Of a stretch of DNA of 64,000 bases, positions 49,292 to 52,083 are shown one piece after another (position 1 is the first letter of the stretch; each line of letters begins with the position of its first letter). Under the pieces are notes generated by a model. It searched no databases. It had not been told where the DNA came from and saw only the letters and a program-made list of their open reading frames with translations. The translations under genes and the position numbers were made by a program. Origin of the DNA: the human T2T-CHM13v2.0 reference genome, Homo sapiens; the NCBI RefSeq assembly GCF_009914755.1, contig NC_060925.1. One strand, written 5' to 3'.

Positions 49292-51502
49292 GTTTTTTTT
49301 TTTGTGATAACAGATCAATTTTAATTCTAGTACCTGAAGCTATACAAGGGTATGCTCTATAAACTTCATGGGACTGTTGTACACACTTGATAAAGTGACA
49401 ACCGTGCAATACCACTTAGCATCTCAAAATCAGGAACATACTATTGAATTGCTTAAATACAATCCACAGAATTAAAAACAAAATCAGATGCCATCCACAG
49501 TTATACTAATTATCCATTAAAAGCTTACACTTAATACTTGAAATAACAATCAATATCTAGCAGGGAATACTGAAAGTGATTTCAGAGTCTCATCCTGTTG
49601 TACTCTGTTGGGAAGGTTTCTTGAGTAGATGTGTGACTGGCCAAAGATGGGTACAACCAAGACCAGACCAGCAAGTAAAAGTTCTACCACAGTTTCTGTA
49701 GTTTCCACTTGTTTTTCTTTGTCAGTTAAAAGTGAACAGTGAGAATTAAATACTTATCTTTACATATACACAAGGTATGCTATGAAAGCGTATCTGCTTA
49801 CAAACATATAAAAATATTTGTTAACTAGTTTGATAAGAAAATAATGTATAAAAGTATATAGCAAAAACATTAATCATCTCTGACCCCAGAAAGATCAATT
49901 CCATATTTTATATTACAAACAAAAACAGTTTTAGTTTTTTGAATCCCTTACCCAGAAATACTTGAAAAGGAAGACAGACAGAAATTATTCCTTTTTACCC
50001 TTAGCGTGGCTGTGAAAAAGAGTTAAATTAAAAAACCAAGTACACTCAAATATCTAAGTCCTAAATGAGTCCAAATATTTGACCACGTAGAATATTACCA
50101 TCTTCAAGAGTAGGAGCAGTAACACAGGCTTTTATGAGCAGTTTTTAATCCATAAATACAATAGGCATTTGGTATTTTGGCCACCAGAAAACAAAAGTTG
50201 TAGTATAAGTAAAGGTCTGAGATGGTTCACTTTTGTAGATTCAATTCAGTGTATTTAAGGTTAACAAAGGCTGACATTGAAATGTTTAAAGATAGGCAAA
50301 AATTCACATTAAAAAAACCCTATATTTCTATTTAGAGTAACAGTAGGCAGTGTGATTCCAAAAGTTAAAAATTATTTCACAACCTGTAGCTTCAGCTTGG
50401 CAAACAGCTTAGATTCCAAAACTGATTCATCTCTATTAAAATGTAAGCACTTAAAAAAAGAGCATGTCTGTGTATATAGACATATATTTTAAAGGAATCA
50501 GATAATCTTTGAAGCAGCCTTAGTGTTTCCTTTAAGTTTGTCTGGAAATGACCATTGTATTAGCTTCACAGAAAGGACTAGCCAGCTTCTTGGTCTAAGG
50601 CTAACATGGTGATCATTTGTCTAAGGCTAGAAAGGTACCAACAAGATGTAAACTGAGGAGAGGAAGAGAAGATGAGGGCTTTTCCTGGCAGTTGGTAGCT
50701 AAAACTGAAGGGATTCTAGAAAATGACACAATGGCAGCCTTTCTTGTCTTTTTCTTTCCGTGTTGGTTCTGGTGAAGGAGGACATTCCTGCTCTTGAAAT
50801 TTCCTGATAACCCGGACAAGTTCATGGAAAGCTTGATCTACATTCATCCTAATCTTTGCTGATGCCTCCATGTATGTTACCTTAAGTTGCCGTGCTAACT
50901 GCCGTCCTTCTTCCTGTGTTACCTGTCTTTGATGATCCAGATCTGCTTTATTACCAATTAAAATCATTGGGAACTCATCACGATCCTTTACTCTGAGAAT
51001 CTGTCTTTGAAACTTATAGATTTCTTCAAAACTGCCTCTATCTGTGACTGAAAAGACCAACAGGAAGCCCTCGCCAGTCCTCATATACTGTTCTCTCATG
51101 GCTCCAAGCTCTTCTTGTCCTGCTGTATCCAAAATATCTAGCCGGGCTGCTCTGTCATCTATCACACACTGCTTTGTGTAAGAATCTTCATTGGTTGGAT
51201 CATAATCCGTTACAAAATAGGACTCCCAACTTAGGAAACAAAACATTTGTAATATGATTGAAGACTCCTGCATGCCTCCTCAATAATATTCCCCTCTCTC
51301 CTCCCCCAGCACCAAGAGGTAATCAATATCCTGAATTTGGTATCTGTCATTCTCATGCATTTATACAACATTAGTAATCATATGATAGTATTCCTAAGCT
51401 ATGTTTTGGAGAGGACACCACTGCAAATCTTCAGCCCTATACTAGCTTTTATCGGTAGCCATCAATTGCAGTTTTAATAGAAATACAAATACATCAAGTG
51501 TC
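49292..51502 (-). pseudogene. RRAS2P1: Processed RRAS2 (TC21) retrocopy with a non-canonical 5' leader; open 185-aa ORF 51273-50716
   Basis: Intronless [10 protein letters not shown]...KKGCHCVIF*, about 1.4-kb 3'UTR, ATTAAA (49325-49320), polyA 49303-49293, 14-bp TSD TGTTCTTTAATTTG (49278-49291 / 51503-51516). Lacks the exon-1 P-loop. Symbol from recall. Confidence 0.95.
50778..50797 (+). CDS. SCP2: Coding part of a candidate SCP2 alternative terminal exon, antisense to the RRAS2 retrocopy: (G)GHSCS*
   Basis: Polypyrimidine tract 50738-50759, first downstream AG at 50776-50777, phase-compatible with the exon 11 donor, TGA at 50795-50797. Agrees with my recollection of a short SCP2 isoform ending in GGHSCS. 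Confidence 0.72.
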
Positions 51503-52083
51503 TGTTCTTTAATTTGTAAAGAAAATTTGTTTTCTAGCGTGACACCCTCAAGGTACCGTATCTGTATGTAAATGTTGTGCCCAATGCTACACAGACATTA
51601 TTTTAAAACTATTTTCTGCCTTTGGTAAATAGACTAAACTGTTTTCTTTATTCCTCAAAAGAATTAGATCATACTTCAGTGTTGATTTTGTTGCTAATGG
51701 GACATGGAGATGTCTGGATGATAATAAATATTCCTGTGGTATGGTCACTGAAGCCTTTAAGAGTTATGCTGTAGTTTGTGTGTAAAGAAGTGACTTAAAT
51801 CCTCCTTTCAGACAGCTTCCTTACGCATATAGGAAACCTCTGTTTCATTAGGAGATGAATATGATATTTCATTTTAGTTGTTCTTGTTGACATACAACTT
51901 TTTTCTCTTCTGAAATAGCATGTTTTTATTATAATTTGCTTGATTGCCATTATTAGATATTTTTGTCATGCCATCCACTGAAATACTCAGAAATCATGCT
52001 TTATAGTAACAATATAATTTTTCATATCTATATTTGTTATTAAAATTTAGATCTAATTTTTATACAATAAAATGCACAGTTCT

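What the first reader, a model, noticed from the sequence alone, without database searches (positions are those of the whole stretch)
51224..51516. TSD shows the RRAS2 retrocopy captured a non-canonical RNA with a 279-nt, partly L1-like leader in place of exon 1
Seen: RRAS2 coding homology stops at TCC-TAT (Ser37, 51223), but the 14-bp TSD TGTTCTTTAATTTG recurs only at 51503-51516, so 51224-51502 arrived with the insertion. Recalled: Ser37 is the start of RRAS2 exon 2, and about 51224-51365 resembles an old L1ME 3' segment. Inference: this is a fossil of a germline or early-embryo RRAS2 isoform using an alternative, TE-derived upstream exon (...GTTGGGAG|TCCTAT). A template-switch chimera or retained intron are alternatives.
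Basis: partly seen in the sequence, partly recalled or inferred. Interest (0 to 1): 0.75.

Follow-up and report, generated by a model that had tools for sequence, protein, structure and literature searches.

The report
Retrocopy preserves an alternative RRAS2 first exon
The RRAS2 pseudogene inside SCP2 was copied from a spliced RRAS2 messenger RNA that started at an extra exon inside RRAS2 intron 1 instead of at exon 1, which is a tidy but ordinary example of a pseudogene recording an alternative transcript.

Summary
The 14-bp TSD is exact at 49278-49291 and 51503-51516. The leader is 51223-51502, 280 nt, and TCC (Ser37) starts at 51222.

Leader nt 2-280 have one full-length match in the genome: chr11:14437093-14437371, minus strand, 272 of 279 identical, no indels. 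That site lies in RRAS2 intron 1. It is 16.7 kb below the exon-1 donor and 45.6 kb above exon 2. It is followed by GAG|GTGAGT. In the retrocopy it is joined exactly to the exon-2 acceptor (cag|TCC), and all later junctions are exact.

Retained intron and template-switch chimera are rejected. Leader nt 1 is a G templated by neither locus, which fits a capped full-length RNA and hence a first exon.

The 3' 177 nt of the exon and its donor belong to an old dispersed repeat. The "L1ME" label could not be verified.

Baertsch 2008 already describes this retrocopy as the source of an antisense SCP2 exon, present in human and chimpanzee and absent in orangutan. Truncated RRAS2 isoforms are in print. 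I could not check whether this exon is annotated. Modest interest.

The parts
51503..51516 (.). Target-site duplication, copy at the 5' side of the minus-strand insert
   Evidence: Exact 14-mer, one of only two exact copies in the window.
51502..51502 (-). Untemplated G at the 5' end of the retrocopy. chr11 has C at this position and the SCP2 flank after the TSD has T.
   Evidence: Alignment and junctions. Reading it as a reverse-transcribed cap is recalled knowledge, not tested here.
51223..51501 (-). Copy of the 279-nt alternative exon from RRAS2 intron 1 (chr11:14437093-14437371, minus strand)
   Evidence: 272 of 279 identical, no indels, all 7 differences are transitions. The genomic copy is followed by GTGAGTATG.
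51223..51399 (-). Part of the leader derived from an old dispersed LINE-like repeat. On chr11 the repeat also supplies the splice donor and continues 41 nt into the intron.
   Evidence: nhmmer profile of 30 genomic copies hits this stretch at E=1.9e-25. The 22-mer core gave 45 genome hits against 0 for the reversed control. Coverage is anchored at the 3' end.
51271..51273 (-). In-frame ATG inside the leader (retrocopy nt 230). It opens a 185-codon ORF of 17 new residues plus Ser37 to Phe204, and lies behind 7 upstream ATGs.
   Evidence: ORF listing.
50716..51222 (-). RRAS2 coding sequence from exon 2 (Ser37) to the stop codon, with no stop or frameshift
   Evidence: Exact exon-exon joins. 6 nucleotide differences in 5 codons, 3 nonsynonymous and 2 synonymous.
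49302..50715 (-). RRAS2 3'UTR (rest of exon 6)
   Evidence: Exon 6 is 98% identical to chr11:14373522-14375027, with 27 substitutions and one 1-nt deletion.
49292..49301 (-). Remnant poly(A) tail: 9 untemplated A, then a C next to the TSD
   Evidence: End of the alignment; sequence.
49278..49291 (.). Target-site duplication, copy at the 3' side of the insert
   Evidence: The reconstructed empty site reads ...TTTAATTTG|TAAAGAAAA on the + strand.
50778..51752 (+). Annotated alternative terminal exon of SCP2, antisense to the retrocopy. It covers the whole leader, the 5' TSD and 236 nt of SCP2 intron.
   Evidence: Hub gene table. Acceptor tttcttgtctttttctttcc...gaag|GAGG and AATAAA at 51723. Described in PMC2584115, Table 2 and text.

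Best explanation
RRAS2P1 is an L1-mediated retrocopy of a fully spliced, polyadenylated RRAS2 mRNA. That mRNA did not contain canonical exon 1. It began at an alternative first exon of 279 nt inside intron 1 (T2T chr11:14437371 to 14437093, minus strand).

Shown: the exon was spliced from its donor GAG|GTGAGT to the normal exon-2 acceptor, and then through exons 3-6.

Inferred: the RNA was made in germline or early-embryo cells of an African-ape ancestor. L1 endonuclease nicked an SCP2 intron at a T-rich/A-rich site. The poly(A) tail was primed there, and reverse transcription ran to the capped 5' end, adding one G. A 14-bp target-site duplication resulted.

The exon is a mosaic. Its first ~102 nt, including the start site, are unique sequence. 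Its last 177 nt and the splice donor come from an ancient LINE-like repeat lying in sense orientation.

The transcript lacks codons 1-36, which hold the P-loop. It could encode at most a 185-residue protein with 17 new N-terminal residues, behind 7 upstream ATGs, or a 127-residue protein starting at Met78. It is therefore most likely a non-coding or loss-of-function isoform.
For: (1) One full-length genomic source. One search gave 3 matches: the window itself, chr11:14437094-14437371 at 97%, and a 42-nt repeat fragment.

(2) Position. The source lies on the same strand as RRAS2 exons 2-6. It sits between canonical exon 1, which ends at 14454046, and exon 2, whose first base is 14391443.

(3) Splicing. 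The genomic copy ends at GAG|GTGAGTATG. The retrocopy joins ...GGGAG directly to TCCTAT, the first bases after ttcttgcag|. All 5 junctions are exact.

(4) Retroposition hallmarks. These are an exact 14-bp TSD, a poly(A) remnant, and an empty site reading TTTAATTTG|TAAAG.

(5) 5' end. The first base is a G templated by neither locus, and chr11 reads C|A at -1/+1. The sequence upstream is purine-rich with no good acceptor tract.

(6) Age. There are 40 substitutions in 2200 aligned nt, or 1.8%. This agrees with the reported presence in human and chimpanzee and absence in orangutan, rhesus and marmoset (PMC2584115 Table 2).

(7) Comparison. An older chr2 retrocopy (86-87%) carries canonical exon-1 sequence joined to exon 2 at the same point. 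The junction position is therefore the normal exon 1/2 boundary.
Against: No transcript, CAGE or annotation data for chr11 were available here. Present-day use of this exon, and its status as a first exon, are unproven.

An AG lies at -3/-2 relative to the first matching base (...ccaaaAG|c|ACACTT). An internal exon with a retrocopy truncated at its very start cannot be excluded.

The single extra G could be an untemplated junction nucleotide or a later C-to-G change. The cap reading is recalled, and my literature look-ups for it were unproductive.

No primate genomes were available, so the empty site was not inspected directly.
Confidence: 0.75

Rival explanations
1. The 279-nt segment is an internal (cassette) exon of a transcript that began further upstream, at exon 1 or another promoter. 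The retrocopy is 5'-truncated right at the start of that exon.
For: 5' truncation is common in L1-mediated copies. The chr2, chr19, chr7, chr1 and chr10 RRAS2 copies all cover only part of the query, as 5'-truncated copies would. An AG dinucleotide lies just upstream of the first matching base.
Against: Truncation would have to fall within 1 nt of the exon boundary. The 25 nt upstream (gaagggtgaggtttcacccaaaagc) are purine-rich and make a poor acceptor tract. The first base is an untemplated G, and genomic -1/+1 is C/A.
Confidence: 0.15
2. Template-switch chimera. L1 reverse transcriptase jumped from the RRAS2 mRNA to a second RNA, an intronic fragment, and no spliced isoform ever existed.
For: Chimeric retrocopies made by template switching are known (recalled).
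Against: The switch would have to leave the mRNA exactly at the first base of exon 2. It would also have to enter the second RNA exactly at the last base before a consensus GTGAGT donor, in the same gene and on the same strand. Splicing explains this without any coincidence.
Confidence: 0.03
3. Retained intron, or the leader already lay at the SCP2 site before the insertion.
For: None found.
Against: The segment lies 45.6 kb from exon 2 in the parent gene, so it is not contiguous intron. It lies inside the exact TSD pair and is 97.5% identical to chr11.
Confidence: 0.01

Closest known systems
Processed pseudogenes as 'genomic fossils' of alternative transcripts (Shemesh et al. 2006, PNAS). I saw only its entry in the reference list of PMC5470649; the paper itself is not held, so its content is recalled.
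   Same: A retrocopy preserves a transcript form that differs from the reference mRNA, here in its first exon.
   Different: This is a single locus. The variant is at the 5' end (an alternative start exon), not an internal splice variant. Whether it figures in that paper's lists could not be checked.
RRAS2/SCP2 exon acquisition (Baertsch et al. 2008, BMC Genomics 9:466, PMC2584115; section 9 with Table 2 and passages read)
   Same: The same retrocopy. It is reported as an antisense insertion that gave SCP2 a shorter alternative transcript, present in human and chimpanzee and absent in orangutan, rhesus and marmoset.
   Different: The passages I read say nothing about the 5' leader or about which RRAS2 transcript was copied. 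The paper's Additional File 1 (genomic locations) was not opened.
Annotated N-terminally truncated RRAS2 isoforms ('RRAS-206' in Cancer Res 2022, PMC9354703, passages read; RefSeq variants with alternative 5' exons, recalled)
   Same: These are transcripts that lack the GTP-binding region because exon 1 is replaced or skipped.
   Different: The paper does not state the exon used. I could not check whether any annotated transcript starts at chr11:14437371.
Exonization of transposable-element sequence, with splice donors recruited from old LINE 3' ends (general knowledge, recalled)
   Same: The donor and the 3' 177 nt of the exon lie in a dispersed repeat. 7 of 27 aligned family copies have GT at the same column, and 1 of 27 has GTGAGT.
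   Different: The start site and the first ~102 nt are not repeat-derived by my searches. The repeat supplies the donor, not the promoter.

Membership tests
L1-mediated processed pseudogene (retrocopy) | All introns of the parent gene removed at the exact exon junctions | tested here: met
   5 of 5 junctions are exact (alt exon/2, 2/3, 3/4, 4/5, 5/6) against chr11.
L1-mediated processed pseudogene (retrocopy) | Poly(A) tail at the parent's polyadenylation site | tested here: met
   9 untemplated A follow the parent's ...TTATCACAA end. The tail is short, as expected for an old copy.
L1-mediated processed pseudogene (retrocopy) | Target-site duplication flanking the insert | tested here: met
   Exact 14-bp pair, the only two exact copies in 64 kb.
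L1-mediated processed pseudogene (retrocopy) | Insertion at an L1 endonuclease-type site (TTTT/AA-like; consensus recalled) | tested here: inconclusive
   The empty site reads TTTAATTTG|TAAAG. It is T-rich/A-rich but not a perfect consensus.
Alternative first exon of RRAS2 | Maps inside the parent locus on the gene's strand, upstream of exon 2 | tested here: met
   chr11:14437093-14437371, minus strand, between exon 1 (ends 14454046) and exon 2 (starts 14391443).
Alternative first exon of RRAS2 | Ends at a functional 5' splice site and is joined to the exon-2 acceptor | tested here: met
   GAG|GTGAGT in the genome. The junction ...GGGAG|TCCTAT is preserved in the retrocopy.
Alternative first exon of RRAS2 | 5' end is a transcription start site (capped RNA, CAGE) | not testable with these tools
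   Indirect evidence only: an untemplated 5' G, C/A at -1/+1, and no acceptor-like tract. No CpG island: 5 CpG in the upstream 1 kb at 35% GC.
Alternative first exon of RRAS2 | Present in current transcript annotation or RNA data | not testable with these tools
   No chr11 annotation or RNA-seq was available. Paper searches gave nothing specific.
L1 (L1M/L1ME-type) 3' end | Member of a dispersed, 5'-truncated, 3'-anchored repeat family | tested here: met
   45 hits to the 22-mer core against 0 for the control. Coverage falls off upstream and stops about +150 to +200. The profile hit has E=1.9e-25. 9 of 30 copies have their first A-rich tract at +150 to +299; the T-rich control gives 5 of 30, which is weak support.
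L1 (L1M/L1ME-type) 3' end | Continuity with L1 ORF2, or a match to a reference L1 3' end (RepeatMasker/Dfam) | tested here: inconclusive
   There was no match to one L1's 3'UTR. ORF2 probe hits: 0 of 30 copies within 1.4 kb and none at chr11. 2 of 10 long copies have ORF2-like sequence 4-6 kb upstream, but no colinear chain links it to the family, and that rate could be chance. No repeat library is held. The L1ME name rests on recall.

The most novel reading that the evidence does not exclude
The intron-1 exon may be absent from present human annotation. It could be a germline-active RRAS2 promoter of the human-chimpanzee-(gorilla) ancestor, now weak or silent, for which RRAS2P1 is the only full-length record. 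Its product would be a P-loop-less RRAS2 transcript whose donor was created from an ancient LINE 3' end. The retrocopy still keeps the whole 185-codon ORF open.
Probability: 0.15. Interest if true: 0.4.

Novelty: new member of a known kind. Interest (0 to 1): 0.25.

Why it matters
It corrects the anatomy of an annotated pseudogene. RefSeq ends RRAS2P1 at 51223, but the retrocopy runs 280 nt further, to 51502.

It gives base-level evidence that an RRAS2 transcript starting in intron 1 and lacking the GTP-binding P-loop was made in the germline or early embryo, after the orangutan split reported in PMC2584115 (Table 2). That predicts a promoter and a splice junction that can be looked up directly in CAGE and RNA-seq data.

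It is also a clean example of an old repeat supplying a consensus splice donor.

None of this changes how retrocopies or RRAS2 are understood. The general phenomenon and this retrocopy's effect on SCP2 are already published.

Tried and rejected
(1) L1 label by comparison with a tool-derived L1 3' end. I used the L1 that hosts the chr2 RRAS2 retrocopy and found no significant similarity. L1 3'UTRs differ between subfamilies, so this is uninformative.

(2) L1 label by ORF2 remnants. tblastn with that L1's degenerate ORF2 C-terminus (stops as X) gave no hit at chr11 or at the chr1 copy, and 0 of 30 family copies within 1.4 kb. I then fetched 7 kb further upstream of the 10 longest copies. Most hits were Alu contamination of my probe. 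Non-Alu ORF2 hits occurred in 2 of 10. Colinear homology did not link them to the family. Result: inconclusive.

Pfam accession PF08333, recalled as the L1 ORF2 C-terminal domain, is not in the held library.

(4) The genome DNA search is insensitive to old repeats. Only 3 matches came back for the repeat-bearing stretch, so copy numbers are lower bounds.

(5) scan_promoters_terminators uses bacterial consensus sequences and is irrelevant to a human promoter. I disregard it.

(6) Literature on the cap-derived extra G: searches found no usable passage, so that point is recalled knowledge.

(7) Literature on this exon gave nothing on the leader. The searches were 'RRAS2P1' (1 unrelated paper), RRAS2 + 'alternative first exon' (2 papers, neither title on RRAS2 isoforms; not opened), RRAS2 + 'transcript variant'/'isoform'/'N-terminal' (2 papers, neither title on RRAS2 isoforms; not opened), RRAS2 + 'alternative promoter' (6), RRAS2 + 'retrocop' (1) and RRAS2 + 'TE-derived' (0).

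(8) Selection on the retrocopy ORF. 3 nonsynonymous and 2 synonymous codon changes, and an open frame at 1.8% divergence, are what neutrality would often give. There is no case for function.

Full report
**1. The observation**

On the minus strand the window reads: CAAATTAAAGAACA (51516-51503), then G, then 279 nt, then TCCTATTTTGTAACGGATTATGAT.... The 14-mer TGTTCTTTAATTTG has exactly two mismatch-free copies in 64 kb, at 49278-49291 and 51503-51516 (also family D5). They bracket a minus-strand insert whose 3' end is ...TTATCAC followed by 11 A and a C.

TCC (Ser37) begins at 51222, so the leader is 51223-51502, which is 280 nt.

**2. Where the leader comes from**

A search of the window's own genome with the leader returned 3 matches:
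- the window itself;
- chr11:14437094-14437371, minus strand, 97% identity;
- a 42-nt fragment on chr1.

A global alignment gives 272 of 279 identical for leader nt 2-280, with no indels, and all 7 differences are transitions. Leader nt 1 is G where chr11 has C. The SCP2 flank after the other TSD copy has T. That G is therefore templated by neither locus.

**3. Position in RRAS2**

The whole retrocopy maps exon by exon to chr11, minus strand:

| Exon | chr11 coordinates (approximate ends) |
|---|---|
| 2 | 14391356-14391443 |
| 3 | 14390348-14390450 |
| 4 | 14390059-14390167 |
| 5 | 14377196-14377314 |
| 6 | 14373522-14375024 |

Every junction is an exact exon-exon join flanked in the genome by ag and gt.

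I located canonical exon 1 through an older chr2 retrocopy that still carries its 3' part. It ends at chr11:14454046 and reads [36 protein letters not shown]|gtacct. It lies in GC- and CpG-rich sequence.

The leader's source therefore lies in intron 1. It is 16.7 kb below the exon-1 donor and 45.6 kb above exon 2. In the genome it is followed by GTGAGTATG, so the site reads GAG|GTGAGT. In the retrocopy ...GGGAG is joined to TCCTAT, the first bases after the acceptor ttcttgcag|.

This is the signature of splicing.

**4. First exon or internal exon?**

Three points favour a transcription start:
- The retrocopy begins one base before the homology, with an untemplated G. From recalled knowledge this is a frequent mark of reverse transcription reaching the cap. 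I could not retrieve a passage for it.
- The genome reads C/A at -1/+1.
- The 25 nt upstream are purine-rich, with no acceptor-like tract.

Against it, an AG lies at -3/-2, and no CAGE or RNA data were available. The upstream 1 kb is 35% GC with 5 CpG, so it is not a CpG island. It is unique apart from two 45-nt hits. I put about 0.75 on a first exon and about 0.15 on an internal exon with truncation at its edge.

**5. Repeat content**

Pairwise, leader nt 138-280 plus 57 nt of the chr11 intron align at 63% to a chr1 locus. The best-conserved 22-mer of that copy recurs 45 times in the genome with at most 1 mismatch, against 0 for the reversed control.

Thirty of these copies show a 3'-anchored coverage pattern. 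Progressively fewer copies reach further upstream, and coverage stops about +150 to +200. A profile built from them hits the chr11 locus at exon nt 103-279 and 41 nt into the intron, with E=1.9e-25.

The donor column carries GT in 7 of 27 aligned copies and GTGAGT in 1 of 27. The donor is thus a latent site of the repeat that is perfect in the chr11 copy.

My attempts to link it to L1 ORF2 were inconclusive. An A-rich tail is only weakly supported: 9 of 30 copies against 5 of 30 in the T-rich control. Exon nt 1-102 are not repeat-derived by these searches.

**6. Coding consequences**

Without exon 1 the transcript lacks codons 1-36, which hold the P-loop GGGGVGKS.
- An in-frame ATG at exon nt 229 would give 17 new residues plus 168 RRAS2 residues, 185 aa in all. 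Seven ATGs with short ORFs precede it.
- The next in-frame Met would give 127 aa.

The retrocopy keeps this frame fully open. It has 6 nucleotide differences in 5 codons: I47N, F75L and Q143R, plus 2 synonymous changes. At 1.8% divergence that is unremarkable, and I see no evidence of selection.

**7. Age**

There are 40 substitutions (33 transitions, 7 transversions) and one 1-nt deletion in 2200 aligned nt. Baertsch et al. 2008 (PMC2584115, Table 2) list RRAS2/SCP2 as present in human and chimpanzee and absent in orangutan, rhesus and marmoset. Gorilla is not listed. The two lines of evidence agree on an insertion after the orangutan split. I could not inspect primate genomes myself.

**8. 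What is already known**

The same paper describes this retrocopy as the source of an antisense alternative 3' exon of SCP2. I confirm the signals:
- The acceptor is tttcttgtctttttctttcc...gaag|GAGG at 50778. It is the antisense of the Lys-rich RRAS2 C-terminal codons.
- AATAAA lies at 51723, in flanking SCP2 intron.
- In my translation the exon adds 6 codons before a stop.

The annotated exon (50778-51752) covers the entire leader. The passages I read do not mention the leader, and the paper's Additional File 1 was not opened.

Truncated RRAS2 isoforms that lack the GTP-binding region are in print ('RRAS-206', PMC9354703, passages), without exon detail. The concept that retrocopies record transcript variants goes back to Shemesh et al. 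2006. I saw that paper only as a citation, and it is not held.

Searches for RRAS2 with 'alternative first exon', 'alternative promoter', 'transcript variant', 'retrocop', 'TE-derived' and 'RRAS2P1' gave nothing on this exon.

**9. Verdict**

The 'L1ME' label is plausible but untested.

This is a well-resolved and ordinary case: a new example of a known phenomenon, at a locus already published for a different reason. It may correspond to an already annotated RRAS2 transcript. Interest is about 0.25.

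Noticed in passing
window 50778-51752 (+): The annotated SCP2 alternative terminal exon is the antisense strand of RRAS2P1. Its polypyrimidine tract and AG acceptor come from the antisense of RRAS2's Lys-rich C-terminal codons. Its AATAAA (51723) lies in SCP2 intron just beyond the retrocopy. In my translation it adds only 6 codons before a stop. Already described in PMC2584115.
   Followed up: partly
window 49302-51223 against 49292-51502: The RefSeq span for RRAS2P1 stops at 51223. 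That is 279 nt short of the true 5' end of the retrocopy (51502), because the leader does not match the reference mRNA.
   Followed up: yes
L006/L008 (chr2:223161856-223163365): An older RRAS2 retrocopy (86-87% identity) carries the 3' part of canonical exon 1 joined to exon 2. It is 5'-truncated within exon 1 and inserted in the ORF2 region of an L1. The L1's 3' part carries a later Alu.
   Followed up: partly
L007, L010, L013 (chr19:6606495-6606913; chr7:101043265-101043536; chr1:204627842-204628363) and chr10:18618927-18619153: Further RRAS2 3'UTR-only fragments at 94%, 81%, 69% and 71% identity. They are presumably 5'-truncated retrocopies of different ages.
   Followed up: no
window 49031-49260: An Alu-like element (name recalled) lies directly beside the 3' TSD of the retrocopy. 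family D1 shows its two arms, and one search shows many Alu-type hits across the window.
   Followed up: no
window 52086-53837 and 1038-1538: Two more annotated processed pseudogenes lie in the same SCP2 window (hub table): TUBBP10, only ~570 nt from RRAS2P1's 5' TSD, and H3P2. This is a small cluster of retrocopies.
   Followed up: no
L002 1981-2130 (chr11, about 200-350 nt upstream of the alternative exon): A stretch that resembles a MIR element, antisense to RRAS2 (recalled likeness). It accounts for the two 45-nt genome hits. It could contribute to the putative promoter.
   Followed up: no
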